A stretch of 64,000 nt of DNA from a virus (taxonomy: Duplodnaviria; Caudoviricetes): IMG/VR virus record IMGVR_UViG_3300020349_000003; one strand, given 5' to 3'. Below the pieces are notes generated by a model. The model was not told the DNA's origin. It worked only from the letters and a program-made list of their open reading frames with translations, and made no database searches. This document shows, one piece after another, positions 17,436 to 38,400 of this stretch (its first letter is position 1; each line of letters starts with the position of its first letter). Position numbers and translations under genes: made by a program.

Positions 17436-17442
17436 TATTTAT
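17436..17442 (-). promoter_or_regulatory. T4-type late promoter (ATAAATA)
   Basis: Overlaps the gp7 stop codon, 21 nt upstream of the next ATG. Confidence 0.65.
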
Positions 17443-20400
17443 GTTAATACTTCAGGGTCTACTAACTCTTCACCATATAGTGAAAGGTCAGGAGCAGTCC
17501 AATCATCAGGAACTGATGTCTCAACATCAATGTTAGGAGTGTTGTATCCAGTTCCAGCATTATTAATGACCACTCCACCAACACCAACTAGTGCATTAAT
17601 ATCTCCTTCAAAACCAGATATAGAGTCAACTCTAACATTTGGTCTACTTGTGTATCCAGATCCACCTGAAGTGACCTGTACGCTATCGATAAACCCTGAT
17701 GTTAGATTTGCTTGTCCTTGTGCATTCTGTCCGAATACGGAACCAAGATAATCAAATGTGATTAAAGAGTTTGAAGATTCAATAACAGCAACTTCTCTAT
17801 CTGATGTCTCACCTTGGATGTCAATAAAGTCACCAGGTTCGATAGGTGGAATAACTTCAGCAGCATCAACGTCTGCCTCAGAACCAACGTAGGAGAATCC
17901 AACGAATGTAGAACCTACACGAGGAATCTCAGAGAAGATGATACGTGAACCAACCAATTCAAAACCAACGCCTGGTTCCTGAATAACACCGTTAAGTGAA
18001 ACGATGATATTATTCTCAGGTCTAATAGTTGTAGACTGAACACCATCTGTAAGCGTTAGTGAGTAGAATACATCATTACGCTTGAGGTTGAATGACTGAC
18101 GTAAGGAGTCAAACTCGAATGAGATATCATCCAATTGTCTCAACTTACCTACGTAGAATCCTGTGAAGGATGCACCTAGTTCTGGTGGTTCTGTAAACTC
18201 TATAGAGTCAGAGAACGCTGTATATGCGTTAGCTGCACCTGGAGGTTGTAGAATACCATTAACGAATACGAGGAGATGTCCAGCTGGATCTGGTAGGTAC
18301 TGAGTACCATTACCTGTGGTAAGTTTGAACGTAGTTTGAACACCATCAAATCCTTTGAATGCTCGTTTAACACGTGCGAGAAGTGCAACTTTATTTACTA
18401 CGATTGCCTTATAATTATCAGCACTGATAATAGCGTCCTTAGTAACAAACGTTCCTTTAATATCACTTAGATAAACTCTCTTAAGAATACCACTATCACG
18501 TATATCCTGAATTAGAGCAGAACCAACACCAGGTGTCACAACCCTTGTAGTTACGGATGCGTAACCAACTGGGAAGTTATTTCCAACTCCATAATGACCT
18601 ACGAGATCACCATTTGTAAGAGGAGTTCCTTGGAAGTCGGCAATGTACAAGAAGTTATTATCTAAATCAACTTCAGAAATTATTGCGTAATTATCAAAGT
18701 CCTGTATACCACCAACAACTTTGTAAAGTCTGTTACCAACAGTGAATTCATTCAATCCACTGATGATTGCGATACCCAAGCGTGTATATCCAGCAGATGC
18801 GATCCTATCACCAACTGATATATCAAAACCATCAAACTTACTAACTTCAATATATTGTCTGGAAACTTCTGGATAAACAACAGAAGTTGTTTCAAATGAT
18901 CCTTGTAAAGTTTCAGTATCAACTGTCAGAGTACCACCTGTATTATCAAGTACAGCAGCTTCTGTGCGTATGAATGAAGTTGGAGTAGCAGTAGCACCAC
19001 TGGTGTATGCCTTGAATGGAACTGACGCACTGAATGTACCCTTAAGGTCTATAATTTGAATACGATCTGTAATTACACTAATTTGTCCTGTTGGTGGTAA
19101 TTGTGCTCTATCAGACTCAACTACATCAAGAGCTGCAAATGTACCAGCATTAACTATCACATCCACGTATCTATAGTTCTCATCTTCCCATATACTATGA
19201 ACAGTACCTGTTACAGCATTATCAGATACCTTTCTGATAGTCTCACCTACCCAGAATGGTCCATCTGTTATCACAGCATCAAATCTAAATCTCTTATAAA
19301 TCTGAACAATCTGACCTTCATTGACAGTCATGTTTTCTAATTCCGCATATGCACCACTGTTAAGTCCATATAAGTAATCAGAATCATTTAATCCACCACC
19401 CAAACCAACTGGTAGATTTCTAGTTCCATATGTGTAAGTAGGTACAGTAATACCATTATTAATAGTGATATTAGTGTAGAATGTATCTAAACCTAGTTGT
19501 CCTTTTAGGATATCTAAGTTACTTCTGATACATCTAGTTACTGTTTTATTTGAATAGTTTGATGCCGATGCAGAATCAAAGTACTTAATATAACTTGCAG
19601 CAGGTGAAGGTGATGTAAGTGTATCACTTATTGCCTCACTTGTATAAGTTTCTAAAGCACTTAACGCATAGGTCTTAACATTATACTCAGTGTCTGCATA
19701 GAATACTTCACCAAGTTGAGATGTGTATGGGTCAATAGTACCAATAGATAATTTAGCACCCCACATATACATACCACTTGCACCATCACCCAAGTATGAT
19801 AAAGAATTAGTAGCATCATACATTAAGAATTGAGCACGTAATTCACTAAATCCGAATGATATTGTTGTTGTGATATATGCTCTATACCATCCATTACCAT
19901 AAGGTACTGAACCATAAGCATCACCACTTATACCACCTTGAGGTTGGAATAGTGTTCCAGCAGTTCCTGAAGCAAGATCTAAATCAAAGAATACATCTTG
20001 CTGACCAACTGTACCAGCATCCATAACAAGACCAAATCTAACTTTATTAAACTCATCTCCCTTAAAGAATACTGAGAATGTGTACTGTTGATTATCGTCA
20101 TCGGTAGCTGCTCCACCTTCGTCAAACGTATTGTTGGTATCGTCAAACTTGATAGTTCCATCATCCCATGTATCATAAGATGTTAAACTATAGTTTCTGC
20201 TAGTATAGTGGTAACCACTACTTTGGTAAGCAATTAATTTTTCTGCAGTTTGTGTACCATCTGGTGCTTGTGCAAAATCATCACTAATAACAATGTAACC
20301 AGGCATCCAATCACTTCTAATTGCTTCTGGATTTGTGAATAAGTTAGGTGCGGATACTTGACCTTGAATATTAGATTGTATATTCTTAGCAAACGCAATT

Positions 20401-23400
20401 GTTCTAACATTTGCTGGTTTGTTGATCCAAGTATATGGATAACCAACTCCACCTACCTGAACATTTGCTACAACACCAGAGCGTGTTCCTTCTATTTTAT
20501 CATTTGCTTCCCAAGGAGTACCATACCAATTTCCAACAACTAAGAAACTACCTTCACTCTTATATTCAAGAACTACAGCAGAACCACCAGCAGCTCTCTC
20601 ACTAAATATCATCTCACCAACTTGGAAGGCACCCGTAACATTTTCAATTTTAATGTTATGTCCGATGGTTGTATCGCTAATATCAGTTGTAATTAAATCG
20701 TGTACTAAGTTAGTAACAATTGTATTGAGCCAATCATCGTATGCCCAAACACTAGCACCAAACTGCTGTGTTACAAGAGTTGTAATCTCTTCTTTATAGT
20801 AACTCTGGTTATAAAGTAAGTTCTTAGCAGCACCTCTCATTGCCAACTTACCAGGAGCAAGCATATTGAGTGCAAGATCTACTAATTCCCTGAACCTAGT
20901 AACAACTGGACTCATATCAATTGGTAATAATGAATCTCTATATGCAGCTATAGTAGTGTAGTTGAAGTTATATGCTGGAGGAGACTCATTAGAATCTTTA
21001 GTGTATAATCTATTAAGAATTGCATGCTCACCCAACCACTTCATCTGCTCAATAGCATATGTTGTTGCTAATAACTCATCTTCGACGAAGTTAATTTGCA
21101 TTGCAGTGGATAGATAATTTTCCATTGCTGCAATAGTACTATTATTTCCACCTGTTTGTAAGTCAGAAATAACACCCAACATAATAAGACCTATGTCACG
21201 AGCACATGTTGAAACACCGCCTGGTTCTGGATATAAGAATGCGTTGTAAAGAGGACCACCTTCTGCTAATTGGAATTGGAATTCATTAGTTACTAGTGTT
21301 GTTATTTCATCACCAATTGACTTTCTGTTGAAGTACAATCTATCAGCAGAGATTGCATAATCGCTATTTGTAGGAGCAATAATATCGTTAGCAATTTCTA
21401 CTAAACTATCAATTGATTCTTGAACATCAATACAATCACCAGGAGCTATTATTCCATTAGCAGTTGCACTGACAAACGTATGAGCAGCAGTGTTAGTAAT
21501 AGGATAATCTGGTTCCTTATTAACGTTAACAGTTACTGTAGTTGCTGTTACTGCAAGGATCTTAAGGTTTCTACCACTTGCATAATCTTTACCATCAGGA
21601 GTACCAGCAACACCAGAAGGACGTGGATATGTACCATTTGCAGTACCAGTTCCAGGGTCACAAGAGAATGTTAATGAATTATTTTCTATCTGAATATATC
21701 TTCCAACAATAAGTGAATGAGAACCAATTGTGATTTCTAAACTACCTGAAGTTGGACTATATACTGCTCCAGTTGCAGTAAATGGCATTGGAGTTGATTG
21801 TGTAATACCCCAATCACCAACTATAATTTTATCAGTATTCTCATAAGTTAAGTTACCAGTTACCGCTTGCTTCATGTAATGTGCAAGACGTAAATGAGCG
21901 TATGCAGATTGGAATAACTGTAAGCGAATGTGTAAGATAACATCATTAGCACCAAGATATCTCTTAGCAACGTTAACTGTATTAAAGTTACCACCTTGTC
22001 TAAGGTCTTTAATAAACTCACTAAGAATTAATGCTAAGTCAGTCTTACACTGTAAAGTACCATTACCACTACCATCAGCGTTTCTAGGCATATCCAAAAG
22101 AAGATCTGGATATAAAGTTAACATATCATGTGATGCTTTATCTACAATAGGACCAGCATTTGCTTCAACTAGATCTGCAGCATCTTGGAATCTATACTTA
22201 TTATCACCACCAATTTGAGTTGCGTAGATAATATCATCTGTTGCATTGTGTAGTGAAATTGGGAATGTTTCTTCCAAGAATGCATATACACGACCTCCAA
22301 GGAATTCATTTTCTGGATCTGAAGTTAATTTTGATATTAAACCAAGATGGTCTGTAGGTGATGTTGCATTAGCAGATTCTAAAGTATCAGTAACTATATC
22401 AATTAAGTTTTCTACAGTTGCTTGTACATCTACACAATCCGCTACACTGTAATCCATAACAGTAACACAATCAGTTACTGCAGAAACAAATGAATGCTTT
22501 GTTAAGACCTTCTTAATTGCACCAGGGTCTGCACTTGAGAATGTATGAGTACTTGAAGGACTGTATATAACGTTATTGCTAGAAGCATTACCAGTATATG
22601 TGTGAACATAATCACCACCAGTTACAACTGCTGCTCTCTTAATACAGTTAGTTGCATATGTTTTACCAGTTACGAATGTATGTGTAGTAACGTTGGTAGA
22701 AGGTGTTATATCTAAAACTTGAACTTGGAAGGTATATGATGTCAATCCTGTAGATAGAACTTTCAACCACTTACCAGAAACAGGGTCAGTAGCACGTGGA
22801 TATCTATGCTCAGTTGCATTACCATCCTTAGTACATGTGAAGGTTAATGAGTTATCATCAAACTTAACATACTCACCTGCATCCATATTATGAACAACAT
22901 TAGTTGTAACAGTCATTATTCCTGTCCAACCACTATATGTTATTCCAGTTGGTGTATACTTATCATATACTGTATAGAAAGCATGTTCTGTAGTATTGCT
23001 AATAGCACCATTAGATACGTCAATAGTAACAGAGGTTGAAGTTGTAGCAGTAATAGGATGGGACTTATTATATCCCCAGTCAGATGTACGAGGATAATAG
23101 TGAATAGTACTACCACCATCTTGAGCACAAATGAATCCAAATGCCTGTTTAGCAATCTTAATACCATCACCTATACTAAGTTCATGAGCACCAATATCAA
23201 TGGTTAATGCTCCAGTGTTAGGATTGTATGCTGTTGTTGAACCAGCTGCTAATGAAGGATTGTATCCTTTAATAGGAGACTTACCAACATTAACTTTAAT
23301 CATACCATTCTGTGCTCTAACACCATTAGTTGTAGAACTTAAGAAAGCATGAGTAGAAGTGTCTGAAGATATTCCTACATTAACTTCAAATGTATCATTG

Positions 23401-26400
23401 GTCTTATTTGAAATAGCTAACCATCTTCCACTTGCAGGGTCAGTTGCTCTTGGATACTTATGGTCTGTTGTATATCCATCTAAGTTACATCTAAAGGTTA
23501 ATGACTCATCAACAAGTTGGATGTAATCTCCATTACTAAGTCCATGACCAGTCAGTGTAATTGTCATTACACCTGTTGAAGGAACAAATGCAGCGTTACT
23601 AGCAGTACCTGAACTGTAATATACATCAGTTACAGGAATTGATTTCTCAGCACCGTAAGGATCTGTTGCACGTGGATATGTCTTAGTAGCAGTATTGCCA
23701 TCCATATCACAAGTAAATTGTAAAGTATTATTCTGTATAACAATACTAGAACCTTTACGCATTCCGTGTTGACCAATTGTTAAGGTCATATCACCTGTTG
23801 ATGCATCGTAAGTAGCAGCAGATGGTGTAAATGTCTGGTTAGTTCCAGCCGTTCCTACATTAACTGTTATTGAGGTAGCGTCTGTGGCAGTAACTGCCAT
23901 TTCTTTACCAGCAGTACGAACATCATGTCCAGGTCTAGGATAAGACTTGATGGATTGGTTATTATCCATCGTACATGTAAATCTAAGAGACTCATTATCA
24001 ATGGTTACAAAATCATCAGTTGTAATATCATGAGCAAGAAGATTTATTTGCATCAAGCCAGTACTTGGATCGTATGTTGCACTATCTGGATTATATGGTT
24101 TATAGTTTTTATTGAATGAAGTAGGACCAACGTTAACAGTAAATGAGTTTGTATCAAACTTAGTAATTGGTAATACTTGCTTAGATGAAGGATCTGTTGT
24201 ACGTGGATACTTATGATTTGAACCCCTATCATCATATTCACATGTCATGGTCAATCCATGATCATCAATAGATATTGCTTTACCTTTCTTTGTAAAGCAT
24301 CCACCCTTAGCACCTGTAAGAGTATGTGTATAAGCACCACCAGTTCTAATTACAGCACGAGTTAATCCATTTGCTACCGCAGATTGGAATTGGTGAGTAG
24401 TAGTATTAGAAGAAGTACCGACATTAACAACAAAGGTATCTTTAGTAACACTAGATACTAGCAAATATGTACCGCTAGATGGGTCAGTAGAACGTGGATA
24501 TGTATGATCAGTCTGATAGTTATCTTGTAAACAACGGAATGTTATTGAACCATCGTCAAATTTAACCATATCCCCATTTTCAAATCCATGATTAGGAACT
24601 GTTACAGTCATTGAACCAGTACCAGGAGTAAATGCAGCAGCAGTTATAGTGAACTTCTCACCACCAGGAACGAATTCGTGTGTATAATCACCACCAAGAG
24701 TAAATGCTTTATCTACTGTTAGTCCACCTTTCCAAACGTGAGTGTATTGTCCACCACACTTAATAGCATCTGCAGAAGCAGACTGGAATGCATGAGTTGA
24801 AGTATTTGAAGATATACCAACATCAACTGTAATTACACCAGTTGGTCTCTTCATACTATTTGCAACAAATGATACAAATGTATGAGTTGATGTATCGCTA
24901 GACTTACCAATAAAGACATCAAACGTATCTGTCTGAACGTTATCTAATGGTAACCATTCAAAGTAAGATGGGTCTGTACGTCTTGGATATGCATGGTTAG
25001 TAGCATCACCATCTTTAGCACAAGTAAATGTTACTGCATTTTCATCCAATCTAACTTTATCATTTGCCTTAATTAATCCGTTAGCGGTTGCTGCTACCCA
25101 TACATGAGTTGTATTGTTAGAAATAGGTTGATCACCAAATGCACTTCCAACAGTCAAATTGAAACTGTTTGCACTTGTGCGAAGAATTGGGAAGAATCTT
25201 CCACTAGCAAAGTCACTAGGTCTTGGATATGAATGGTTAGTAGCATTACCATCTTCAGCACAAGTAAAGACTAAAGAATTATCAGCAATCTTAACCATGT
25301 CACCAGTTACAAATCCATGAGCAGTAGATGTTATTTGCAATTCACCTGTTGCTGGATTAAATGCTGTACCAGTTTCTGCAGTCTTTGTAGTTGGAGCAGT
25401 TAATCCATGACTAGCCATAGTTATGGTCATCATACCTGTGGTTGGATTATATCCTGCTAATGTTGGAGTATGTGAAGTAGTTACAACATTTTGAACAGCA
25501 GTTGCAGTGTTGTATGCATAGTCAGCACCACCAGGAGCATTAGAACCAGATGCACGAGGATATGTCTTATCTGTTGTTTGACCATCAAGATCACAACGGA
25601 ATGTTAATGAATCTTGCTCAATGTATACAGAATCACCAGCTCTTGTAATTGCATTTTGAACACAACTTACAAATGTGTGAGTGTAATCACCACCAGTAAT
25701 TACAGCACCTGTTAGAGATGAATGATAGTTATGAGTACCAGAATGACTAATTGCCGTTCCTGGTGACTGGTTAACGTTTACAGTAATGGTTGTTGCATCC
25801 TTAGCAGTAATATTAAGTGCAGTATTATATGCATAGTCTTCATTATCAGTTGTATTAGCACCATATGATCTTGGATATGACTTCTGAGTACTGTATCCAT
25901 CTCCACCATAATCACAAACAAATGTGATTGAATTATCTTTTAATCTTATGCTAGTTCCAACTTCTAAACTATGTGTACCAATTGTAATTACTAAGTTTCC
26001 AGATACAGCATCGTAAGTTGCATTAGAAACATTGAAATCTAATTGTGGTGAAGTTCCTACGTTAACATCAAATGTATTATCAGTAACGTTAGAAATTAAC
26101 ATCCACTTTCCAGACTGAGGGTCGGTAGATCTTGGATAGGTATGATTGCTACTGTGTTGGTCTAATGAACATGTTAAAGATAATGCATTATCAGCAACCT
26201 TAATCTTATCTCCAATTACAAATCCATGATTAGGAATAGTAACTGTCATTACACCAGTTGTTGCAATATAATTTACATCAGTTGCTGTATGATTCGTAGC
26301 ATCTTTAATCCAATGATTACCAACAGTCAAGTCCATGATACCCGTAGCAGGATCATAGGTAGCAGCAGAAGGAGTATATCCGTGGAACTTACTCGGACCA

Positions 26401-29400
26401 ACATTAACAGTAAAGGCATTATTATGAACCTTAACACCGTTAGTTACTCCAGAAACAAATGTATGTGTATAAGCACCAAATACAGTTCTACCAACAAATA
26501 CATCAAATGTAGTACTAGTAGAAGCTTCTACAACACTCCATCCTCTTCTAAACACTGGGTCAGTCTTACGAGGATATGCATGGTTTGTAGCATTACCATC
26601 TTTAGTACAACTAAAGGTAATAGCACCTTCTTCAAATCTAACCATCTCACCACTAACTTTCATACAAGGGTTAGAAGTTACACCAACACATGTATGCTCA
26701 CTAAGGTCTTGGGACTTACCAATAAACAAATCAAATGTATTTGCAGTTCTATTCTGTGCAGGTAACCATTGGTCTCTTGCAGGGTCACCTGAACGTGGGT
26801 AGTAGTGGTCTGTTGTCTCATCATCCAATCCACAACGGAATATGAATGCTCCATCATTAAGTTGAACAAGGTTACCATTGTATACCTGATGAGCAGATGA
26901 TGTAATGGTTAACATTCCAGTAGCAGGGTCATAAGCAGCACCAGTACAATTTCTAGTACTTGGAGCATTTAACTGTGAACCGATAGTAACGGTCATCATA
27001 CCTGTTAATGGGTTATATGATGCATCAGATGCAGTCTTATCAACTTCAGAAATATCAATAACGTCAACAGCAGTACCACGAGCAGGGTCAGTTAATCTTG
27101 GATATGCGTGGTCAGTTGATTGACCGTCCATATTACATGAAAAGAGGAATGCTCCATCTCTAAGTCTAATGCTATCACCAACCATTAAATTAGGATGTCC
27201 ACCAAATCCAGGAGAACCAGGAGCAGAAGAAGTAATTACTAATGAACCAGTTACAGGAGTATAGTTTGCACTAGAAACATCATATGCAATATTATGTGTC
27301 TTACCAACATCTAAAGTAATTGTATTATCCTTATGAATAATACCATTAGGATCTGCAGACTTAAATGTATGTAATGAAAGGTCAGGAGATACACCAACAT
27401 TTACATCAAATGTATTAGTAGTTACATTAACAATCTTATGTAATCTACCGCTAGATGGGTCTGTTGAACGTGGATATCTATGTTGAGTTATATTGTTATC
27501 TAACAAGCACTCAAATGTAATTGATTCATCAACAATACGAACCTTATCACCATAGGCAAACCCATGATTAAAGACGGTAATTGTTAATAGACCTGAGTCA
27601 GGTGTATATGATGCAGCATTTGCTGTATGAGAAGTTCCTTCATATAGAATAGGTACACTATCCTGATAGATGAAATCATTTTCTCTTGGATATGTCTTAA
27701 CATCTTGTAGTCCATCCATAGTACATCTGAATGGAAGACTACCTGTAGCAACCTTAATATTTGTACCAGCTCTCAATCTATGCTCACCAATAGTCATCTT
27801 AAGAAGACCTGTTGAACCACTATATGTTGCAGCAGTTGGGTTAAAAATTACATCTGGTGTTTTACCAACATCAAGTGAGAATGTTGTTGAGTCAACAACA
27901 GTAACATCTAACCAACCTTGACTTGCATGGTCAGAAGATCTTGGATACTTATGCTCTGACCTGTTTTGGTCCATAGAACATGTAAATGTTAGAGCTTCGT
28001 CTTCAATCTGAAGTTTAGAAGTTGATGTAAGATTATGAGCACCACTAGTTGTACATGTAAGGATACCAGTAACAGGGTTATATCCACCACCTGAGATTGA
28101 TAATGATGTATTACTAAACAAACCATGTGATCCTTTTAATATCTTCAATTCACCAGTTGAAGCATTATATTCTGCTCCTGTAGGTGTAAACTTAGTTGCA
28201 GCACTACCACTAGATTCTGTAATACTGGTATCAAATTTCTGTTTATGTCCATGATGACCTTGTACATCCCAAGCATCATTGGTTATGATATATCTTAAAA
28301 TTTGATTTAATTTACCGTATGTCCAAACAGTTTCTACAATTTCTTGTTCAACGTTAAGTAGTTTAACATTGTTTACATCGACTCTATCAACATAGTATGA
28401 TGCAGCATCCCAAATCTTAGAATTACTACCATTACGTAAATCGTATGCAACAGACTTACAAATATCTTTAACATCATCCTGACAATTTGCACTACCATTA
28501 ATGACAGTGAAATCTGGGAATTTTTGTTCTAGTAAATATACTGCCTCATGAGCAATAAATTCTAGGTTAGATTCAATCAATGTAGCAGCATTATAATACC
28601 TATTTGTATTTCCAACAAATCCTTTTTGAACTGCTCTACCAACGTTAACTGTAATCGTTGTACCAGTTACTGAAGTAATTGCTATAGCAGTGTTATGTAC
28701 TGGATCTGAAGTTCTAGGATATCTGTGCTCAGTTGCATTATTATCCTTATCGCAAGTAAATGGTAATTTATTAGCACCAATCGTTACAGTATTAGATGTT
28801 GTGAAACTATGAGATCCAATAGTCATGACTAAGATACCAGTCTCACCATCATAAGTTGCAGCAGTAACATCCTTTATAGTGCCATCATTGAATGTAAGAG
28901 CAGCATTTGAAGTGCCAGGTACAAATGTGTGATCTCCAACATAACGAACAGTAGAAATTATAGCATCATTATTAAAGTATTCTCCCTTTGTAAATGACTC
29001 ACTACCAGACCAATCCTGTACCCATTGCTCACCATCTTTACCATCAAAGTGAAGTAACATCTTAGTATTAGTATCACCTTGGAATATACCAGCTAAAGGT
29101 GAGAATGCAGTAGAATATCTAATATTATCAGAAATTCTTACTTCATCAATATGACCAATATATCCAGTTGAGAAAGCATAACCAACACCAATAAAGAGTG
29201 GTTTAGCAACATATGTTGTATTATCAGTTCCTGTACCAACTTCAACACCATCAATATACATCTTACCAGTTGTACCTGTTCTAGTATAAGCAACGTGTGC
29301 CCATGTATCAGCAGATAAAGTTGTTCCAACAGAAGTTACAAGATCTGCATTATTAACATTCCAACGAACTTGTCCACTTTCACAATATACTCTAAATGCA

Positions 29401-32400
29401 ACTTCATTAGCACTTGATACTCTTGTGTCAAAAATATCAATAGTTCCACTTAATGAAGAAGAATCAGGACGTATATAAAATTCAAAAGTAAAGTCACCAG
29501 TACCAAAAGCAATCTCATTAGTTGTTTGGCAGAAAATATAATCTGTTGTTCCAGCAGTTAATTGTAATGAAGCATTACCATACTTCTTCTGTGTAGTATC
29601 AATCTGAGCACTACCAGCAAAATCGAAATCAAAATAGTCTTCACCATTAGACTTAGTTCTACCAATCTTACCAAGATATACTGTATTACGTGCTTGGTTA
29701 AATCCAATAACTTCTGCTTTAGTATCTCTAGATCTTATAATTTGACCAGAACTAAAGAATCCAGTTCCTTCTCTATCATAGAAAGACATCTTTCTAACTT
29801 TACCATCTTCACCAGTTACAAACTCATTAGTGTTATTACCATAATCAATCTTATAATTACGGATTTCTTCATTAAGTTGTAATGTTCCAGTTAGATTATT
29901 GAATGGAATAATGTAATTATTAATCTGTTCATTAGATGGGAAGTTACCATTATATCCAGTTGTATTATCAGTAAAGTCAACTATACTTACTGCAGATGAT
30001 GCAATATCATCTAGAACAACGTTTGGATAAGTCTGAGATGTAATCCTATTGAATAGTAACCCAAAGAATGAAGAACCAGGAGAGATATCAACTTGCCCAA
30101 TAAACTCCTGAGTTACAGGATCTTGATAAGCAGATGTTGCAGTAATCTGTGCAATAACCCCAGACTGTGCTCCATAGATAACATCATTTAACTGAATATC
30201 AAATAATCCAGGAGAGGATGTATATGTACCTGCAGTCTTACTTAAAGTTAGTTGATCAGTAACCTCAATCTTAGTACTATAAAGTGGAGTATTGTCTTGC
30301 TGATTCTGAGCAGTTGTACCAAGAACATTTCTTACAACTGTAAGTGATGTTGATTCTGCATTATCTACAGTGCTTATAAGAGTAAAGATTTCAGATCCTA
30401 CCTGATAGTTAATATTTGGTGTAAAAGTACCTGTAGGTACTGGTTGGTTAGTTGATGCAGTTGGATCAATAACTTCAAATACAGTTGTTGAAGGACCGAT
30501 AGAATATCTCAACTTAGCAATAGGCATCTCTTGCCCAGTTTCTAAGTTAACTGATTCAATTTTTGCAGTATTACCTTCTAAGTTTGTTATATTTTCACCG
30601 AAAGTAAACAATCCAATACTTCCTACTGGAGTTATAGATGCTAAGTTTCCAGCAAATCCTGTTGCTACAACGTTACATAATTCACCAAGTACAAAACTAC
30701 CATCAGTTATAAAACCAGTAACTACTGTACCAACTACTTTCAATACTGTAAATCTAGCATCAGATGAACTACCTTTAATTACATTATTAAGACCAGGATA
30801 AATTCCACTAGCATTATTAAATACCATCTCATATCCTTGGATAGGTGCTATGGTAACAGAAGCATATTTAACACTTGCTGGTGGTTTTGGAGGCTCACTG
30901 AATACAATAGAGTCTTGTTGAATTGTAAATGCAGTCTCTGGGTTCTGTACAACACCGTTTAAAACAACCATTAACTGATTGGCATTAGCAACTACAGTAC
31001 CACCATTAACTGTTAATGGGAACGAAGTCTTAATACCATCAAACTGTTCTGATATATCATCAACTCTTTGTACAACAGAAGTTAGAATATTCTCGGAAGA
31101 TGTTAATCTCTTCTGTCTGAATAGTACTTCTGTATTATTAAACTCAGTATAAATTGGTTCAACTAGAGCAAAATTCTGAATATTTGGAACGATTGCTTCT
31201 TGTGCAAGTTCTACAGACTTAGTGAGTTCAAAGAATGTATCCTTATTAGGAATTTGTCCATACTCATTCAAGTTCAACTCACCAAACACCTTAAATGATG
31301 CAGGGTGAACGTTTCTAATTAGAATCTCTTTCCACTCACTAATAGAAACAGCAGACTTAACAGCATAAGAGAAGTCCTGATAGTAGTAAGAGTCTTGAAT
31401 CTTTTGAATAATTTCGGATGGTTTACCAACATCATCAATAAACTGACCTGTTGTCTTAGTGATAGAACCAATATCTAGAACACCACGAGCAAACTTAAGG
31501 TCGCTAATAGTACCAGAAGACTTGGATATAACACCAGTTATTTTTTGAAGTTCTGCAAATTCACCAGTATAGTCAACAATCTTAAGAATTCTAGGTCCAA
31601 TCTGCCAACCAAAGTTAATTGAAACATATCCTTGTGCTGTTGCTGTTTCTAAAGAGTCACCTTGATATACAAGTTCACCTTCAAGGAAAGTAGAAGTGAC
31701 AACGTTTGCAGTAGCAGCACCACCAAATGATTCAGTCAAGATACTTTGACGACCATCACCAGCGTTAACAAATGATAATGCATCACCCAATTCTGCGTTC
31801 TGTGGAGTAATAGCAATCTTTAATTGGTCATCTTCTAAAGAATTTGCTGCACCAGAAATAGCATAGTATGTGGTATTTGGATTAAGACGACCTGTTGCAC
31901 CAGCAGCTAGAGGATAGTCTGCACCATCTCCAGTATCAGTTACAGCAACACTAATTTCAGAACCACTAACAATACCATGTGGATAAGCAAACTGTAATAA
32001 ACCTAAGTCAAGGTTAACAACATAGTTGAATGAAGATCTAAGACTTACTGCAGGTGTAGAAGAATATCCAGCACCTGGGTCTTTAACTTCAATAACATCC
32101 AAACGACCATTCTTAATAGTAGCTTCAGCAGTCGCACCAGATCCACCACCACCTGTAATTACAACAGTGGGTGCTAGAGAATATCCAGAACCTGGATTCG
32201 TAACGGTGATACTTTCAAGAATACTTGTAGAAGTTAACTGAGCATTAAGTGGGAATGTAATCTCAGGACGTAAAGTATAGTCATGAGGATAATCATAACC
32301 AAAGTTATTATTTTTAAGTTTCTTAATCTTACCAACCTTATCACCCTTAGTGAAGATAGATGCTTCAGTACCGAAAGGTGGTATAACAACTACTAAATCT

Positions 32401-35400
32401 GCACCAGATCCAGTCAATCCAGAACCAAGAATACCACTAACACCCTCAACATCAATTGTTGCAGATGTATATCCTTTACCTGGAGATGTAACTAAAACTT
32501 GTTGAATCTGACCTGGAATTGTTATTCCTTCATCATCCTGTCCATCAGCAACTGTAATTTGAACAAATCCACCTTCACCATCACCACCAATAGGTACTCC
32601 ATTGTATGTACCAACTGCATATTCAGTTCCTGGTTCAGTAATCTGAACTCTTTCAATTTTTCTTGTGGACCCAATACCAGTAACAATAGGTAACTTAGTA
32701 TAGAAACCACCTGGATTAATGATACGAATATCACCAATAGCACCAACTGCTTTTAATGAACTTGTAGTATATGATGTTCGTGAAATATCACCAACACCTT
32801 CTGGTTCATTCAATAATGGGAATTTAAATACATCAGCACCACGGGTAATTGTTTGACCAGAAGTACTACTAATTGTAAATGTACCAGTATAAGGTGAATC
32901 TGTTACATCAAGATAACTATCAGAAATTACAGGAGAATCACTACCAGTTCTAGAAGGATCGAAGTAATAAGAAATATTAGTAACTATATCATTATCAACT
33001 TTTAACTTAACTGATGGACTTGGTTGTCCTTGACCAGTTAAACCAGGAGTTCCAATTCTTTCAATAGAGTTGAATGAATATTCCAACTTATAAAGATTAT
33101 CCTTAGCAAATGATAAGTTACCACCTTCTAATGTAGAGTGTCCCAAATCAAAGATATACTGGTGTCCATAGTACATCTTTAAGGTTGGAGATTTAACAAA
33201 TATGCCAACAGTAGAAGCATTAGTTGCAGGAGCAGTTATAGCAGTTTGTGGTAACTTGTAAGTAAATTCAAGTGGACTTACTACAGTATCAATTGCAAAT
33301 GCACCATCATACTCATCATAAACAAGACCACCATTTGTCTGTGATGGATTACCATCAACATAAACGATTTCTCCAGGACTTAAATAATGACTTGTTCCTG
33401 TAATTACATAGACCTCATCACTATTATTAACAGCAGTTACTTGAAGTATTCTCTCTAGATTAGAAATCAAGGTAATCTTAGTAACACCTACTAAATTTGT
33501 TATCTGACATGTGTTGTAATTGGCATTGAAAGATATATCATTAGATGTGAGTGAAACTACAGATCCAACAATGAAAGATGAACTACCACCAATTTCATCA
33601 ATTCTAACTGAATAGTCACCTACATTAAATGGTTTAAATCTAGCAAAGTCATCCAAGTTATTAGTGCCACCTATATTAGCAGGAGCATCATAAGTGGACA
33701 TATCAATGTCAAATGTTCCAGGAGTTGTATTATCAACCTGTGCGAAGGTATACGCCTTCATTTCATTAGTATCATTTGGAACAGGACCAACTATTCCATA
33801 AGTATCTTGCTCATCAAATTGCTCACTAACTAAGATACCATTGTTTAGATCATCACTCCAAGTATTATTCTGAACAGCAATATAAATTTTTCTGTTGGGT
33901 ATATCAGATTTGATGATATATCCACTATTAATAAATGAACCAGTGCTAAGATTATTAAGTCTTAACTTAGATCCTGTAGTAAATATGAATGGTTGATTTA
34001 TAGTTAATTCTTGGATGTTATCAATCTTAATTGTATTAGTAACCTTAAAGAAGTACCTATCCTTAACTACAGCAGATACTTGTAACTTTTGAGAACCTGG
34101 AGAAGGAACAGTTGCTGTTCTAGAACTCCAAATATCATTAGTATAAGTTAATGTCTCTGTACCAGGAGTCATTGTTATAGTAGCATCATCAAAGTCTAGA
34201 GTTTGTAGACCTGCATCACCCAATGCAAAATCAGCTTCTCCAATTACCAATGAAGAACCAGTAAGAGGAGTTACTTCAGTTCTAACAAATCCTAACTGAG
34301 TATTTGTTTGTAAACCTTTATCACCTAATCTAGTAGCATCAGCATTCTTATCTACTTTTAAATTCCATCCATTATAGTCAATATAATCATACTTAGTTAA
34401 ATTATTAGTAAACCAAGCAGTATCTGTCCAAGCAAATGCAAATGCAAATGATGCTACGGGTGGTAAACTTGATATATCAGAAGGTACAGTTGGTGTAACA
34501 GATCTATTTCTTAGTCTAATATTATCAATAAAGAATTGTCCTTGCTTAGATTGACTAAAGTCTGATGCTCCAGATCCGAAACCAATTTGGTTACCAAAAT
34601 ACAAGTCCTTGGCACCAAGAGCAGTATTTGCCAATGTACCAGTAATAACTTCTATAGCATTAACAAATACCTTAAATATATTACCTTCTTTCCTTACAGC
34701 AATAGTCTGCCAAGAATTATCAGCATACATTGTTGTCTGTGATGAAGATATACCAGATCCAGCATTTAATGCAGTTGTATTATTAGTAACAACCATCTGT
34801 AATTCACCAGTACTATTATCATAACCTAACCATAATCCACCAGTAGCATCTTGAGCACCACCAATACCCATTAGAGTTTGAGCTCCTTGAGATAGTGTCT
34901 GAGATGCTGACGCAGATTTGTAAATAAAGAACTCTAAAGTCCAATCATTTGCTAATGTAGTAGCTAAATCAGTTCCAGAAACTTTAAGATATGAATTTTC
35001 CCATGTAGAACTAGACCCAGCTGGTTGATAACCATAGATCTTTGCCATATTATCAGCATAAGTTACGGCATTACTTCCTCCAACTGAAGTTAAAGTATAG
35101 TGACCTGTTAAATCTGTTTGCTCATTAGCAGCAAAATCAAAGATAAACTCATTTCTATTCCATTGAGTTTGACCAGAAAGGTAAATATCACCAGAATTAT
35201 CAGTATTACATGCATGAACAGTTATACCTTCAACACGTTTCTGATTAAATTCGTTGGTACTATGATTTTTAATCTTACCATCATATCCAATTTTAACTGA
35301 ATCTACAGTCTTAACACCAGTTGTAGTATTATGTCTACTAAATGCAAGGTTTAGATCTCCAAATATATCAATAGAACTCCTATCTGCCATAGTGATATCT

Positions 35401-38400
35401 CTACCAGGAGCAACATAACGATAATTCCAAAGTATAGTACCAGATGTATTAACTTTACCAACCCAGAAACTGTCTTTCTGTGCAGGATCAGACTTAAGTC
35501 TTAATGTAGCAGAAATATAGCACTCATTAAATTCATCAAATACAAGACTACCATCAACTAATGAATATACAGATGTGCTGTACTCTTTAATAAAGTCTAT
35601 GTTAATTGCACTAGTAGTTAAAGTCGCTTTACCAAATGCCATATTGACATCTGTAGTAGATTGATTTAATCCTACTTCCATTAAGAAGTATAATTCTGTA
35701 ACACCAGCAGTGGTCGTTATGACCTTCATATCTACAATCTTTTCAGACTTACTAGTAGATACAAGCTTTCTCTTAATAGCAAAATTACCAGTACTATCAA
35801 TAGATGCTAAGAATGCATCATATGGATTACTGGAGTTTGTATTAGTATAACCACCGATAATGAAACGAGTATCACTCCACTTCTGAATTGAAGACACATA
35901 GTCAGCACGAGTAGCACCAGAGATACCAGCATAACCTTTCTGGAACTGTAATCCAGCACTCAATCCATTTTCTGCCTGAGTATACTTAGCGAGTATAACA
36001 TCTGGATTATAATCATTAAGTAAAGTGCTATTTGGTTGATTATTACCAACTACCCAAACATCAAGACCATCTACATAAAGTTTTTGAAACTCTGTATAGA
36101 ATTGTCCATCAGTACTCTCTAAAGTATTCTCCCACTCTTTAACACCTGTAGCAGATAACTTAGAAACAAAACCTACTGTATTTCCAACAGCATCCTTTGT
36201 TTTACCACAAATAAAGATCTCTTTATTATCACTAACATAAGAATCATTAATCTTAACATAATTTTGATTTTCGATTTTAGAAAGATAATAATCTGCTTTC
36301 TTAAAGACCTGTGGATGAGATAATATAACACGAGGATTTGATGTATATCCAGAACCAGAATTTAAAATATTAACCGTATCAATTGCACCAACAGTTGATA
36401 CAACTGCTTCTAATTTTCCAGCACTACCATCACCATCAATTGTAATAGTTGGTGGAATATCTGTATTATATCCAGAACCTCTTTGATCAATAACAATCTC
36501 TTCTATACCTTTATATTGACGAACTACAAACGTTTTGTTTGTGTTCTGCATTATAGGAGTATAATCTATATAAACAACGTCACTAGCAACTAGATTATGA
36601 GGATCTGCTGTTTGTAAAACACCGTAGTTAGCACCACTAATATTCTCGAAACTATATGCAGCAACACTTTCACCCTTAATTTTTGAAATACGAGCAGATA
36701 CACCAGATCCATCAGTATCAGTATTATCAAATATTAATCTATCATCTACCTGATAATTCTTACCTGTGTTCTCAACAGTAAATCCAGTAACAGAAGCATC
36801 TTCAAATTTAGTTGTTGTCTCAACTTCAATATCAACTTTAGAGTCAAATTTAACTTTAGGGAAGTAATCAAATAACTGTAAAGGTGACTCTTCAAACATT
36901 TGATCAGGATCTGCAGTCTCTTCTGCACCTATAATACCATCTCTATTTTCATCTTCCACTTCAAACAACAAGATTTCTCCATCTTCAGTTGTTAAAGCAG
37001 CAGTAGAAGCATTGGGTGTTCTTTCAACATCAATATCAACATTTTCATATGGGTCTCTATAACGTACAACTCCAGTTGGTATATTCTGCTGAATTGCATT
37101 TGCACTAAGATTCCAAGAATCAACAACAGAGTTAAAACTTGGTCCTATAACATATGGGAATAATGGAGCACCTGCATCGGTAGCATCAATAGTAACAAAG
37201 TAGCAGTAGTTACCATTAGGAAAATCGGGGGTTTTACAGAAACGACCATTATACTGGTCTAAGTCACCTAATCCAAAACTATACTCATAGTCTTCCACAA
37301 AATTACCAGAAGGTTCTTCTGTTAATAAAGGACCAGCAGTTCTATTTGGATTGGGGTTAGTTGTATCATCATATACTAATTCATCCTTCAATTTGTATGA
37401 AGTTCTAAGTCTAACAGTAGCAGAACTTTGGTCAGTAGGATCATTGTATCCATAAGGACCATAAATTGGGTTACCATCAAATGCCCAACCGATAATTGGA
37501 GAGTGATTTAACTGCTCTTCTTGCTCAAGAATATTTCCTGTGCCAATTTCTTCATAAAGGTTATCACCAAGAATGTATCTCATTTTTTGTGGGTTTGATA
37601 GGTGAGCATATTCACCACCATACTCATTATTATAACCAGTAAATACAGAACCCTTAGCAGTGTCAAACTGTGAAGTTGCTTGAAGGTTGTAGTTCCATTG
37701 GAATACATTTGCAGTAAAGGTAGCATTTTGACCAACAGAAGTCAAATTGATAATGGTAGTACCTTGAACGTAGTTAATACCTTTGTTTACAATCTCAATA
37801 TTGGTTACTCTTCCAGCATTTTCACCATCTGTATCAATAGTTGCTCTTGCAATCGCACCAAATCCAACACCCTGAATAGATACTTCAGGTGCAGTAGTAT
37901 ATCCAGATCCAGCAGAAATGATAGCAATAGATATAATTCTACCATCATTAACAATGGCTTGTGCAACAGCACCTCTACCAGAACTTAATGTTACTGTAGG
38001 ACTAGAAGTATATTCTACACCACCATTATTAATACCAATTGACTGAATAGGTCCACGAACAGATGCAGTACCAGCAGCACCAGCACCTTCTCCACCAACA
38101 ATAGTAATAAGTGGTTGTGAAGTATATCCAGAACCACCTGAGTTGATTAGAATACGTGAAACTGACCCTTTGGTTATAATAGCAGTTGCAGCAGCACCAG
38201 AACCACCTCCTCCGACGATTGATACTAATGGGGAAGAAGTGAATCCAGAACCACCAGCAGTTACAGTAATTTCACTAAGAGAACCATTAACTATAACACT
38301 AGCAGTTGCACCTTCTCCACCACCACCTGTCATAGTAATCGCAGGAGGAGATGCAGCATCATACCCAGAACCAGCATTAGTGATACTAACATCGGTTACA

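What the first reader, a model, noticed from the sequence alone, without database searches (positions are those of the whole stretch)
22458..28200. Recursively nested, branched protein-domain tree in gp7: 18 copies inserted inside one another
Seen by manual parsing. The ~106-aa module has four segments: A (YxPxTGxMxxT..HG), B (GDxV.I...SLTFxC..D...H.YPR..DP), C (W/L.I...T..TF.VNVG) and D (THTF.S....I). The order is not tandem. Reading 28200 to 22458, with primes marking split segments: A1[A2B2C2[A3B3C3'[4]C3''[A5B5C5'[A6[7]B6C6D6]C5''[A8[A9B9C9[10]D9]B8C8'[A11[12]B11C11D11]C8''D8]D5]D3'[13]D3'']D2]B1C1[A14B14C14[A15B15C15'[16]C15''[A17B17C17D17'[18]D17'']D15]D14]D1. I count exactly 18 A, 18 B and 18 D segments, and every bracket closes in last-in-first-out order; runs of orphan D segments such as GGQYTHVW, GGDYTHEF and GGAYTHTL close outer domains. 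Only four insertion loops are used, depth reaches 7, and several domains host two or three children. A1 and B1 are ~1,270 aa apart. Inference: one polypeptide folds into a dendrimer-like branched appendage on the baseplate, built by repeated insertion of a domain into copies of itself. The HG..GD.V.I...F.V core resembles the E1-FCCH-like barrels of phage tail proteins. I know of no described protein with this architecture, but could not search the literature.
Basis: partly seen in the sequence, partly recalled or inferred. Interest (0 to 1): 0.93.

Follow-up and report, generated by a model that had tools for sequence, protein, structure and literature searches.

The report
Self-nested beta-barrel tree in cyanophage gp7
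A giant baseplate protein of a marine cyanobacterial virus carries 18 copies of one small beta-barrel domain inserted inside one another up to seven deep. This makes a branched protein "tree", a build described so far for cyanobacterial RNA polymerase, and I found no paper describing it for a virus particle.

Summary
Window 17439-41795 (-) is one 8,118-aa ORF in the gp7 position of a T4-like cyanophage baseplate cluster. Residues 4541-6444 (window 22464-28175) hold exactly 18 A, 18 B, 18 C and 18 D segments of a ~94-aa module. A stack parse closes all of them last-in-first-out with no violation, seven levels deep.

Four kinds of evidence support real nesting:
- Excising intact modules repeatedly makes split ones contiguous.
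- Every spliced module scores 75-133 bits over the full module HMM.
- Orthologues differ by whole-module gains or losses exactly at the insertion loops.
- AlphaFold2 models a nested pair (pLDDT 93.9, pTM 0.86) and a five-module subtree (pLDDT 90.0, pTM 0.81). In the subtree, single-barrel PDB templates superpose on residues spanning 1..531.

The fold resembles the E1 FCCH barrel and the phage endosialidase barrel (Z about 8).

Corrections: three loops are used here, not four, and modules 13 and 18 are tandem siblings. The architecture has a published precedent, the six-level nested Si3 insertion of cyanobacterial RNA polymerase.

The build is family-wide: 599 split modules in 121 homologues. 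This scan had already noted it in other cyanophage genomes. I found no paper describing it in phages. Function, probably multivalent glycan binding, is inferred only.

The parts
17439..41795 (-). Giant ORF, 8,118 aa (P0001), gp7-position baseplate wedge / virion structural protein
   Evidence: PHROG 701/18802/2885, Pfam Baseplate_wedge, YHYH, Laminin_G_3; gp6-like upstream and gp8/9/10-like downstream
22464..28175 (-). The nested tree: 18 modules, aa 4541-6444
28116..28175 (-). Module 1 (root), piece A, aa 4541-4560
   Evidence: complex test gave weak support
24120..24290 (-). Module 1, piece B-C, aa 5836-5892
   Evidence: 58 bits as an A-less fragment; spliced module 95.9 bits
22464..22514 (-). 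Module 1, closing strand D, aa 6428-6444
27852..28085 (-). Module 2, A-B-C, aa 4571-4648 (in the A|B loop of module 1)
   Evidence: rebuilt in peeling round 6
24297..24347 (-). Module 2, closing D (GGAYTHTL), aa 5817-5833
27636..27830 (-). Module 3, A-B-C1, aa 4656-4720 (in the C|D loop of module 2)
   Evidence: peeling round 5
27291..27329 (-). Module 3, C2, aa 4823-4835
24651..24701 (-). Module 3, closing D (GGDYTHEF), aa 5699-5715
27336..27614 (-). Module 4, intact leaf, aa 4728-4820 (in the C1|C2 loop of module 3)
   Evidence: 112-122 bits
27048..27269 (-). Module 5, A-B-C1, aa 4843-4916 (in the C|D loop of module 3)
   Evidence: peeling round 4
26385..26423 (-). Module 5, C2, aa 5125-5137
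24711..24761 (-). Module 5, closing D (GGQYTHVW), aa 5679-5695
26964..27023 (-). Module 6, piece A, aa 4925-4944 (in the C1|C2 loop of module 5)
   Evidence: peeling round 2
26433..26657 (-). Module 6, B-C-D, aa 5047-5121
26661..26939 (-). Module 7, intact leaf, aa 4953-5045 (in the A|B loop of module 6)
26304..26363 (-). Module 8, piece A, aa 5145-5164 (in the C|D loop of module 5)
   Evidence: three-block module rebuilt in round 3, 60-63 bits, HMM 2-93
25482..25643 (-). Module 8, B-C1, aa 5385-5438
24759..24842 (-). Module 8, C2-D, aa 5652-5679
26043..26276 (-). Module 9, A-B-C, aa 5174-5251 (in the A|B loop of module 8)
   Evidence: peeling round 2, 104-107 bits
25647..25700 (-). Module 9, closing D (GGDYTHTF), aa 5366-5383
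25698..26024 (-). Module 10, intact leaf, aa 5258-5366 (in the C|D loop of module 9)
25398..25457 (-). Module 11, piece A, aa 5447-5466 (in the C1|C2 loop of module 8)
   Evidence: peeling round 2; AF2 pLDDT 94-98 over this piece
24852..25070 (-). Module 11, B-C-D, aa 5576-5648
25071..25367 (-). Module 12, intact leaf, aa 5477-5575 (in the A|B loop of module 11; depth 7)
   Evidence: fold matches
24357..24638 (-). Module 13, intact leaf, aa 5720-5813 (second child in the C|D loop of module 2)
23841..24080 (-). Module 14, A-B-C, aa 5906-5985 (in the C|D loop of module 1)
   Evidence: AF2 subtree; templates span model 1..531; orthologue indel at its C1|C2 loop
22515..22568 (-). Module 14, closing D, aa 6410-6427
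   Evidence: pLDDT 93-97
23622..23816 (-). Module 15, A-B-C1, aa 5994-6058 (in the C|D loop of module 14)
23271..23309 (-). Module 15, C2, aa 6163-6175
   Evidence: pLDDT about 98; homologues join it directly to D
22575..22625 (-). Module 15, closing D (GGDYVHTY), aa 6391-6407
   Evidence: pLDDT 85-91; 1bx0_A spans model 85..516
23316..23597 (-). Module 16, intact leaf, aa 6067-6160 (in the C1|C2 loop of module 15)
   Evidence: 122-133 bits
22956..23234 (-). Module 17, intact leaf, aa 6188-6280 (in the C|D loop of module 15)
22632..22943 (-). Module 18, intact leaf, aa 6285-6388 (in the C|D loop of module 15, tandem to module 17)
28590..28859 (-). Single flanking module upstream of the tree, aa 4313-4402 (weak D)
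28203..28589 (-). Helical segment between the upstream module and the tree, aa 4403-4531
   Evidence: read from the sequence; weak PF00502 hit, E 0.067
21768..22457 (-). Helical segment after the tree, aa 6447-6676; conserved anchor in orthologues
21444..21767 (-). Single flanking module downstream of the tree, aa 6677-6784

Best explanation
Residues 4541-6444 of the gp7-position baseplate protein of a T4-like marine cyanophage form a tree of 18 homologous ~94-residue beta-barrels. The barrels have the fold of the E1 FCCH domain and the phage endosialidase barrel. The tree was built by recursive insertion of the domain into surface loops of copies of itself.

Each barrel has about eight strands: A is a hairpin, B is three strands ending in YPR..DP, C is a hairpin, and D is the closing strand or strands. 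Its two chain ends lie together. A complete copy, or a whole sub-tree, can therefore sit in the A|B, C1|C2 or C|D loop without breaking the host. The chain leaves a barrel, builds all its descendants, then returns to finish it, which gives the last-in-first-out order.

Six barrels (modules 1, 2, 3, 5, 8 and 15) host two or three children, so the object is branched. Both ends of the 1,904-residue tree lie in one barrel (module 1), which hangs between two helical segments of the protein.

Shown: the segment order, the balanced closure, the indels between orthologues, and the predicted folds.

Inferred: that the tree projects from the baseplate periphery and acts as a rigid, multivalent, fast-evolving binding array for host-surface glycans. 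My confidence in that function is about 0.4.
For: Sequence order:
- There are 18 of each segment and no spurious hits elsewhere in 8,118 aa.
- The stack parse has 0 violations, and valid words are 2e-26 of all arrangements.
- Excising intact modules repeatedly makes modules 6, 9 and 11 (2 blocks), 8 (3 blocks, 60-63 bits, HMM 2-93), and then 5, 3 and 2 contiguous.
- All 18 spliced modules score 75-133 bits over HMM positions 2-87/93. Module 1, joined from three pieces 1,275 and 535 aa apart, scores 95.9 bits.

Comparison with relatives:
- Module 14 is contiguous here and in P0011. In P0007, P0008, P0010 and P0013 it holds a complete ~100-aa module exactly between C1 and C2, and the flanks are 57-70% identical.
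- Homologues P0184 and P0234 lack modules 17+18, a gap of 219 aa from residue 6177 to 6397. They join the VNVG of the C2 strand directly to the D strand AHTFVSA.
- P0002, from another metagenome and 89% identical, has the same token order.
- In 121 giant homologues, 599 of 1,282 modules are split into 2-5 blocks, and the split points cluster at four loops.

Structure prediction:
- AF2 of A11[12]B11C11D11 gives pLDDT 93.9 and pTM 0.86, with the A11 piece at 94-98.
- AF2 of the module-14 subtree (531 aa, 5 modules) gives pLDDT 90.0 and pTM 0.81, with the closing strands D15 and D14 at 85-97.
- Single ~100-residue barrels superpose on that model over ranges 1..531: 6geh_A 77 residues at 3.8 A, Z 5.6; 8ram_O 72 at 3.2 A; 5tr9_A 70 at 2.9 A. 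1bx0_A superposes over 85..516 with 81 residues at 3.3 A. So the distant pieces sit in one barrel in the model.
- Independent BFVD and ESM Atlas models of cyanophage proteins match the two-barrel unit at TM 0.74-0.83.

Fold: E1 FCCH Z 8.0-8.1; phi92 endosialidase barrel Z 7.8-8.1 at rmsd 2.0-2.5 A.

Complex test with A1, B1C1 and D1 as three chains: weak support only. The score is 0.39 and the best of 3 controls is 0.01. The mark was reached by 58 of 80 solved complexes and 2 of 110 mismatched pairs. At 0.60 or under it was reached by only 7 of those 80 solved complexes and by both mismatches that passed. The runs agree in at least 79% of contacts and the partner's pLDDT is at least 60. My own alignments and three chains were used, unlike the calibration.

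Function lead: the endosialidase barrel carries a polysialic-acid binding site and is a host-discrimination hotspot (PMC12632334).
Against: - No coordinates or contact maps were available. Long-range pairing is read indirectly, from pLDDT, pTM and the aligned ranges of templates.
- The closure of the A|B type (modules 1, 6, 8, 11) has no such template-range evidence.
- Any A piece would probably complement any B-C-D piece. The HMM scores and the complex test therefore show completeness, not which piece pairs with which. The pairing follows from chain topology.
- HMM peeling stalls at modules 15, 14 and 1, because C2 and D of module 15 are weak.
- A shuffle control of the peeling statistic is only moderately discriminating: 7 modules beyond round 1 in the native order, against a mean of 1.5 and a maximum of 6 in shuffles.
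- Fold matches at Z about 8 are within the range the tool calls common.
- Pfam has no model that reaches threshold on the module.
- Nothing here shows the protein's place in the virion or any ligand.
Confidence: 0.85

Rival explanations
1. The segments are real, but the fold is local. A-only and A-less fragments pair with their sequence neighbours, as strand-swapped, permuted or degenerate tandem domains. The bracket-like order would then be a by-product of messy duplications rather than true domain-in-domain nesting.
For: No coordinates could be inspected. The A|B-type closure has no template-range support. The complex test for module 1 gave only weak support: score 0.39, best control 0.01.
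Against: - The parse is perfectly balanced, with 0 violations in 72 tokens.
- Split modules become full-length HMM matches once their inserts are removed.
- Orthologues with and without an insert keep the host flanks aligned.
- In the AF2 model, single-barrel templates span 1..531 and 85..516.
- All split pieces have pLDDT 85-98.
Confidence: 0.06
2. The order of segments is an assembly artefact: repeats were misjoined in a metagenomic or short-read assembly.
For: The region is repetitive at protein level.
Against: - A 24.4-kb frame stays open.
- The DNA copies are only 60-80% identical, with no long exact repeats.
- An independent Tara-derived protein, 89% identical, has the same token order.
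- Six orthologues share the topology of the module-15 subtree.
- Random misjoins would not give a balanced parse.
Confidence: 0.02
3. The nesting is real, but the tree binds nothing. It would be a rigid spacer, scaffold or shield at the baseplate periphery. Its size and branching would set geometry or protect the baseplate, and the turnover of topology would be neutral drift of a tolerant decoration.
For: - pTM 0.81-0.86 points to rigid inter-barrel packing.
- The invariant residues (C, YPR, D, H) look like core or structural positions shared by all copies.
- FCCH-like barrels on siphophage tail tubes are described as outward-facing decorations with no ligand assigned in that paper (PMC13576161).
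Against: - The nearest phage structural match, the endosialidase barrel, is a glycan-binding site and a host-range hotspot.
- The module family is confined to cyanophage tail, baseplate and fibre proteins.
- Fast gain and loss of modules between orthologues fits host-interface evolution. None of this is direct evidence.
Confidence: 0.35

Closest known systems
Si3 insertion of cyanobacterial / plastid RNA polymerase beta' (RpoC2)
   Same: One small beta domain is inserted recursively into copies of itself. Outer copies are built from distant parts of the chain, and some hosts hold several children. There are eight domains at six levels in Prochlorococcus RpoC2. The crystal structure shows SBHM-2 to SBHM-5 made from distant chain segments (PMC13114784; PMC10895346).
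   Different: The fold differs: sandwich-barrel hybrid motif / HABAS there, FCCH/endosialidase-like barrel here. The context differs: the trigger loop of an enzyme there, a virion baseplate protein here. The scale is larger here: 18 modules and 7 levels in this protein, and up to 9 peeling rounds in homologues. Here the tree topology varies between orthologues.
E1 FCCH domain (Uba1/Uba6) and FCCH-like decorations of siphophage tail-tube proteins
   Same: A small closed antiparallel beta-barrel that is itself an inserted or appended, outward-facing domain. VIA Z 7-8.1, rmsd 2.6-2.9 A over 74-79 residues. Some homologues and an Atlas cluster carry PF16190. FCCH domains face outward on phage tail tubes (PMC13576161).
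   Different: No Pfam PF16190 hit in this protein. Those domains occur as single copies, not nested. The module here has its own invariant C / YPR / D / H signature.
Beta-barrel domain of phage endosialidases (phi92, K1F endoNF; Pfam PF12195)
   Same: The best phage structural match: 4hiz_A 255-340, Z 7.8-8.1, rmsd 2.0-2.5 A over 79-82 residues; K1F 424-508, Z 6.4-7.0. It is an inserted domain in its host (stated from my own knowledge). It binds polysialic acid (PMC12632334). Two of 87 modules hit PF12195 weakly, E 0.006.
   Different: One copy per tailspike, inside an enzyme. No sequence-level relationship reaches significance. The binding residues were not compared.
Linear arrays of Ig-like / FN3 / BACON-type decoration domains on phage structural proteins
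   Same: Many copies of a small beta domain are added to virion proteins, with a presumed weak multivalent adhesion role (my own knowledge, not checked here).
   Different: Those are beads on a string, in tandem. Here the copies are nested, so the object is branched and both chain ends meet in one barrel.

Membership tests
Recursive self-nested domain architecture (kind exemplified by RNAP beta' Si3) | A host domain's sequence is interrupted by a complete copy of the same domain, and the host is completed afterwards | tested here: met
   Ten of the 18 modules are split into 2-3 pieces. All rebuild to full-length HMM matches.
Recursive self-nested domain architecture (kind exemplified by RNAP beta' Si3) | Inserted copies themselves act as hosts, over several levels, with last-in-first-out closure | tested here: met
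   Depth 7, with 0 violations in the stack parse.
Recursive self-nested domain architecture (kind exemplified by RNAP beta' Si3) | Distant pieces form one folded domain in three dimensions | tested here: met
   Met in predicted models only. Templates span model residues 1..531 and 85..516; pLDDT of the pieces is 85-98. There is no experimental structure.
RNAP Si3 family proper (SBHM / HABAS domains) | Sandwich-barrel hybrid motif fold, located in the RNAP trigger loop | tested here: not met
   Fold matches are to FCCH, endosialidase and reductase-type barrels. The protein is a phage baseplate protein. It works like Si3 but is not a member.
Pfam PF16190 E1_FCCH | Sequence match above the Pfam gathering score | tested here: not met
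   No hit in P0001 or in 87 modules. The family is precomputed on some homologues, such as P0012, and on 28% of one Atlas cluster.
Pfam PF16190 E1_FCCH | FCCH barrel fold | tested here: met
   4p22_B Z 8.0, rmsd 2.6 A, 76 residues; 6dc6_C Z 8.1; 2v31 Z 6.2-6.8. Z about 8 is moderate.
Pfam PF12195 End_beta_barrel (endosialidase barrel) | Sequence match | tested here: inconclusive
   2 of 87 modules hit, best E 0.0058. The profile search of PDB sequences found nothing significant.
Pfam PF12195 End_beta_barrel (endosialidase barrel) | Fold match | tested here: met
   4hiz_A Z 7.8-8.1, rmsd 2.0-2.5 A, 79-82 residues; 1v0e, 3ju4 and 3gvj Z 6.4-7.0.
Pfam PF12195 End_beta_barrel (endosialidase barrel) | Sialic-acid / glycan binding site | not tested
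   Without coordinates the residues could not be compared.
T4-type gp7 baseplate wedge protein | Position between gp6-like and gp8/9/10-like baseplate genes | tested here: met
   phrog_219 and phrog_261 upstream; phrog_677, phrog_708 and phrog_438 downstream.
T4-type gp7 baseplate wedge protein | Sequence match to baseplate wedge families | tested here: met
   PF23786 scores 29.3 bits against a cut-off of 27. PHROG 2885 and 708 are 'baseplate wedge subunit'. Relatives are annotated gp7 in P-SSM2, S-SSM7 and P-SSM4.
T4-type gp7 baseplate wedge protein | Presence and place in the virion baseplate | not testable with these tools
   Needs proteomics or cryo-EM.

The most novel reading that the evidence does not exclude
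Cyanomyophages may use recursive self-insertion as a general, evolvable way to grow rigid branched proteins. The gp7 tree, and related trees in fibre proteins, would be a combinatorial multivalent glycan-binding array. Its topology would be rewired between close relatives by gain and loss of whole barrels or sub-trees, and this would help set host range. At 7 levels and 18 domains, and deeper in homologues, it would be the deepest and most widespread natural case of domain-in-domain nesting.
Probability: 0.35. Interest if true: 0.9.

Novelty: new variant of a known kind. Interest (0 to 1): 0.8.

Why it matters
Nearly all multi-domain proteins are linear strings of domains. Deep recursive nesting of one domain in itself has been described for one system, the cyanobacterial RNA polymerase Si3 insertion, which a 2026 survey of 2.7 million domains presents as its example of complex nesting, at six levels.

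Here the same principle appears with a different fold, in a virus particle, at greater depth and on a family-wide scale. There are 511 cluster representatives at E <= 0.001 and 599 split modules in 121 proteins. Orthologues also differ by clean whole-module indels. That makes the family a natural experiment on several questions:
- which loops of a barrel tolerate insertion;
- how such chains fold, since the outermost barrel cannot close until about 1,900 residues have been made;
- how branched architectures evolve.

It also flags a probable host-interface structure on abundant marine cyanophages. Finally, it warns that domain parsers which assume contiguous domains will mis-annotate these giant proteins.

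Tried and rejected
- **Foldseek against PDB:** no match at E <= 0.001. Only VIA-align gave usable fold matches.
- **Profile of 87 modules against all PDB sequences:** nothing significant. The best hit was iota-carbonic anhydrase, E 0.003, with insignificant stretches.
- **Pfam on the region and on single modules:** no family at threshold.
- **Plain HMM peeling with strict full-length hits:** stalled at module 5. Adding a separate search for the D strand carried it through modules 5, 3 and 2. It still stalls at modules 15, 14 and 1, because HMMER's local alignment does not bridge the leftover linkers and C2 and D of module 15 are weak. I relied on tokens, orthologues and AF2 there.
- **Shuffling the 35 pieces as a control for peeling:** not very discriminating, since any A next to any B-C-D rebuilds a module.
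- **Diagonal clustering of BLAST hits to find same-topology relatives:** useless because every module matches every other. Token patterns were used instead.
- **VIA second look at the nested-pair model:** all 50 rows chose the inner barrel, so it gave no direct range evidence for the outer, A|B-split barrel.
- **ESM Atlas look-up of the helical segment 4395-4535:** scores under 0.9, uninformative; an earlier call failed on length.
- **Model coordinates:** not exposed to the script box, so no contact analysis was possible.
- **Literature searches:** searches for a description in cyanophages found none.

Full report
**What is there.** Window 17439-41795 on the minus strand is one uninterrupted ORF of 8,118 codons. 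It sits in a T4-like baseplate cluster. A gp6-like wedge gene (phrog_219) and a small wedge subunit lie upstream. A tail-fibre connector, a 1,494-aa wedge protein and further wedge subunits lie downstream. The protein matches PHROG 701/18802 ('virion structural protein') and PHROG 2885/708 ('baseplate wedge subunit'). Its Pfam hits are Baseplate_wedge (29.3 bits, cut-off 27), YHYH and Laminin_G_3, all outside the region of the finding. Relatives in 360 phage records are all marine Synechococcus or Prochlorococcus myophages, several annotated gp7. The gp6-like gene is about 70% identical in DNA to Synechococcus phages such as S-RS29. The finding's coordinates correspond to residues about 4533-6446.

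**Checking the observation.** A seed module (4726-4822) searched against the whole protein already gave fragments that are A-only or lack A, in a non-tandem order. I then built a 94-position module HMM from 193 intact modules of 121 homologues and cut it into segment HMMs.
- With all filters off, these find 20 A and 20 B hits in 8,118 residues. Eighteen of each lie in the region, one on each flank, and none elsewhere.
- C2 and D hits fall only at the expected places. The one miss is C2 of module 17, which is visible by eye.
- A motif scan gives exactly 18 D strands in the region.
- Reading the 72 tokens with a stack gives zero violations and an empty stack at the end, with maximum depth 7 (1>2>3>5>8>11>12).
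- Valid last-in-first-out words are 2e-26 of all arrangements of these tokens, and 1e-19 of all words in which counts merely stay consistent.

I read these as tandem siblings in a C|D loop. In orthologues the closing strand of module 18 is the ordinary contiguous HTFVSATANGI. So three loops are used here: A|B four times, the C hairpin four times, and C|D with nine children. A fourth loop, between YPR and DP, hosts inserts in homologues but not here. A1 and B1 are 1,275 residues apart.

**Is it true nesting?** Several independent tests say yes.

1. Iterative excision. I removed every intact module and searched again.
   - Modules 6, 9 and 11 then appear as full-length hits made of two blocks.
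   - Module 8 follows from three blocks (60-63 bits, HMM 2-93), then modules 5, 3 and 2.
   - The procedure stalls at modules 15, 14 and 1 for a technical reason: short, weak C2 and D strands, and HMMER's local alignment.
2. Splicing. Each of the 18 modules, spliced according to the parse, scores 75-133 bits across HMM positions 2 to 87-93. Module 1, assembled from three distant pieces, scores 95.9 bits.
3. Comparison with orthologues.
   - Module 14 is contiguous here and in P0011. Four other orthologues hold a complete ~100-residue module exactly in its C hairpin, and the flanks stay 57-70% identical.
   - Other homologues lack modules 17 and 18. MAFFT opens a gap of 219-231 residues from about 6164/6177 to 6396/6397. 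In P0184 and P0234 the C2 strand VNVG then runs straight into the D strand AHTFVSA.
   - The whole N-terminal half of the tree also differs in topology between orthologues.
4. Structure prediction.
   - With a 68-row alignment of units of the same topology, AlphaFold2 models A11[12]B11C11D11 at pLDDT 93.9 and pTM 0.86. The detached A piece scores 94-98.
The closing strands D15 and D14 score 85-97.
The structural aligner nevertheless reports single ~100-residue barrels superposing on 67-77 model residues at 2.9-3.8 A, with first and last aligned residues 1 and 531 (6geh_A, 8ram_O, 8gz3_B, 5tr9_A, 4r71_A, 6mnt). One template (1bx0_A) spans 85..516. This is possible only if the N-terminal A-B-C piece and the C-terminal D strand of module 14, and likewise of module 15, lie in one compact barrel.
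   - Independent public models of cyanophage proteins match the two-barrel unit at TM 0.74-0.83.
5. Complex test. Folding A1, B1C1 and D1 as three separate chains gave weak support only.
   - The score is 0.39 and the best of 3 controls is 0.01.
   - The mark was reached by 58 of 80 solved complexes and 2 of 110 mismatches. At 0.60 or under it was reached by only 7 of those 80 solved complexes and by both mismatches that passed.
   - The runs agree in at least 79% of contacts, and the partner's pLDDT is at least 60.
   - My own alignments and three chains were used, unlike the calibration.
   - Any A piece would probably complement any B-C-D piece, so this test speaks to completeness, not to specific pairing.

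**Artefact?** This is unlikely.
- The module copies are only 60-80% identical in DNA, and their spacing is irregular.
- The frame stays open for 24.4 kb.
- A Tara-derived protein, 89% identical, has the same token order.
- Six orthologues share the topology of the module-15 subtree.
- A read-level check was not possible.

**What the module is.** It has no Pfam family at threshold and no sequence relative among solved structures.
- By fold it is a small closed beta-barrel.
- The best matches are the E1 FCCH domain (4p22_B Z 8.0; 6dc6_C Z 8.1; 2v31 Z 6.2-6.8) and the barrel of phage endosialidases (phi92 4hiz_A Z 7.8-8.1, rmsd 2.0-2.5 A over 79-82 residues; K1F Z 6.4-7.0).
- Next come flavin-reductase and riboflavin-synthase type barrels and outward-facing barrels of phage tail proteins.
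- Z about 8 is moderate. A weak PF12195 signal in 2 of 87 modules, and PF16190 on some homologues, point the same way.
- To my knowledge, both the FCCH domain and the endosialidase barrel are themselves inserted domains in their host proteins. That fits a fold whose two ends lie together.
- Invariant residues are G9, C37, Y48-P49-R50, D53 and H83 of the module.

**How it probably works.** Because the ends of each barrel meet, a copy or a whole sub-tree can be placed in a surface loop without disturbing the host. Repeating this gives a rooted, branched tree. Modules 1, 2, 3, 5, 8 and 15 carry two or three children. Both ends of the 1,904-residue tree lie in module 1, which hangs between two helical segments. 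The high pTM values suggest rigid barrel-to-barrel packing rather than a floppy bush.

Leaf modules are the most canonical and the most alike (modules 4, 13 and 16 are 51-56% identical). Hosts are the most divergent, at 36-43% to their nearest neighbour. The two A|B pairs are 45% identical as units, which hints that nested units can duplicate whole.

For function I infer a multivalent binding array for host-surface glycans, with about 0.4 confidence. The inference rests on three things: the glycan-binding, host-discriminating role of the endosialidase barrel (PMC12632334), the restriction of the family to cyanophage tail, baseplate and fibre proteins, and the rapid turnover of topology. A purely architectural role remains a serious alternative.

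**How general, and how new.**
- In 121 giant homologues the peeling finds 1,282 modules. Of these, 599 are split into 2-5 blocks, over up to nine rounds.
- A search of 1.84 billion representatives finds 511 proteins at E <= 0.001.
- The principle is not unprecedented. The Si3 insertion of cyanobacterial RNA polymerase beta' has eight hybrid-motif domains, several built from distant chain segments (PMC10895346). A 2026 survey of domain insertions describes it as a six-level recursive architecture and uses it as its example of complex nesting (PMC13114784).
- The present case differs in fold, in setting (a virion), in scale (18 domains, seven levels) and in being variable between orthologues.
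- I found no paper describing it for phages. The library is incomplete, so this is not proof of absence.
- Earlier notes of this scan report the same architecture in gp7 of other cyanophage genomes. They gave me the Si3 and survey leads, which I checked in the papers.

**Verdict.** This is a new variant of a known but very rare kind of protein architecture.

Noticed in passing
window 21444-28859 (aa 4313-6784) and onward to about aa 7000: The tree is one element of a larger alternation: single module (4313-4402), helical segment, tree, helical segment (6447-6676), single module (6677-6784), helical segment. A motif C..D......I.DL..GGN recurs three times (near aa 4438, 6592 and 6860). Each module or tree is followed by a helix starting C[IV]DVQ..I..L..I. 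The beta units may therefore be inserts in helical domains. Pfam gives only a weak Phycobilisome (PF00502) hit on 4391-4457, E 0.067, below cut-off. The Atlas look-up was uninformative.
   Followed up: partly
window 28905-28934 (aa 4288-4297): An orphan D-like strand (GDHTFVPGTSN) lies just upstream of the flanking module at 4313, with no A-B-C of its own. It is the only segment-HMM hit outside the modules.
   Followed up: no
window 15424-15705 (-): One more complete copy of the module (103 bits, HMM 3-93) lies in the neighbouring 1,494-aa gp10-like baseplate wedge protein.
   Followed up: no
window 22464-28175, every module: Hosts that carry an insert in the C|D loop mostly resume with a 'GG.Y[TV]H' junction (D of modules 2, 3, 5, 9 and 15). 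Intact modules have 'S.T..H.F'. The junction motif changes with insertion state in homologues too. The invariant C, YPR, D and H of each module could be a metal site or a purely structural feature.
   Followed up: no
window 25842-25877 and 25518-25550 (aa 5307-5318 and 5416-5426): Modules 10 and 8 share a lengthened loop after YPR (..DYAYNT). This is exactly the site (YPR|DP) where homologues carry whole inserted modules.
   Followed up: partly
window 44280-44921 and 45646-47217 (-): Two 2OG-Fe(II) oxygenase genes (phrog_81) sit inside the baseplate gene cluster.
   Followed up: no
window 26226-26765 (+): A 179-codon ORF lies antisense to the giant gene, inside the tree region. It is most likely a chance frame.
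   Followed up: no
P0007, P0008, P0010, P0011 and P0013 against P0001 (token strings): gp7 orthologues of 7,850-7,970 aa have different tree topologies in the N-terminal half. For example, P0007 has a three-module sub-tree where P0001 has leaf module 4, and it lacks the module-8 sub-tree.
   Followed up: partly
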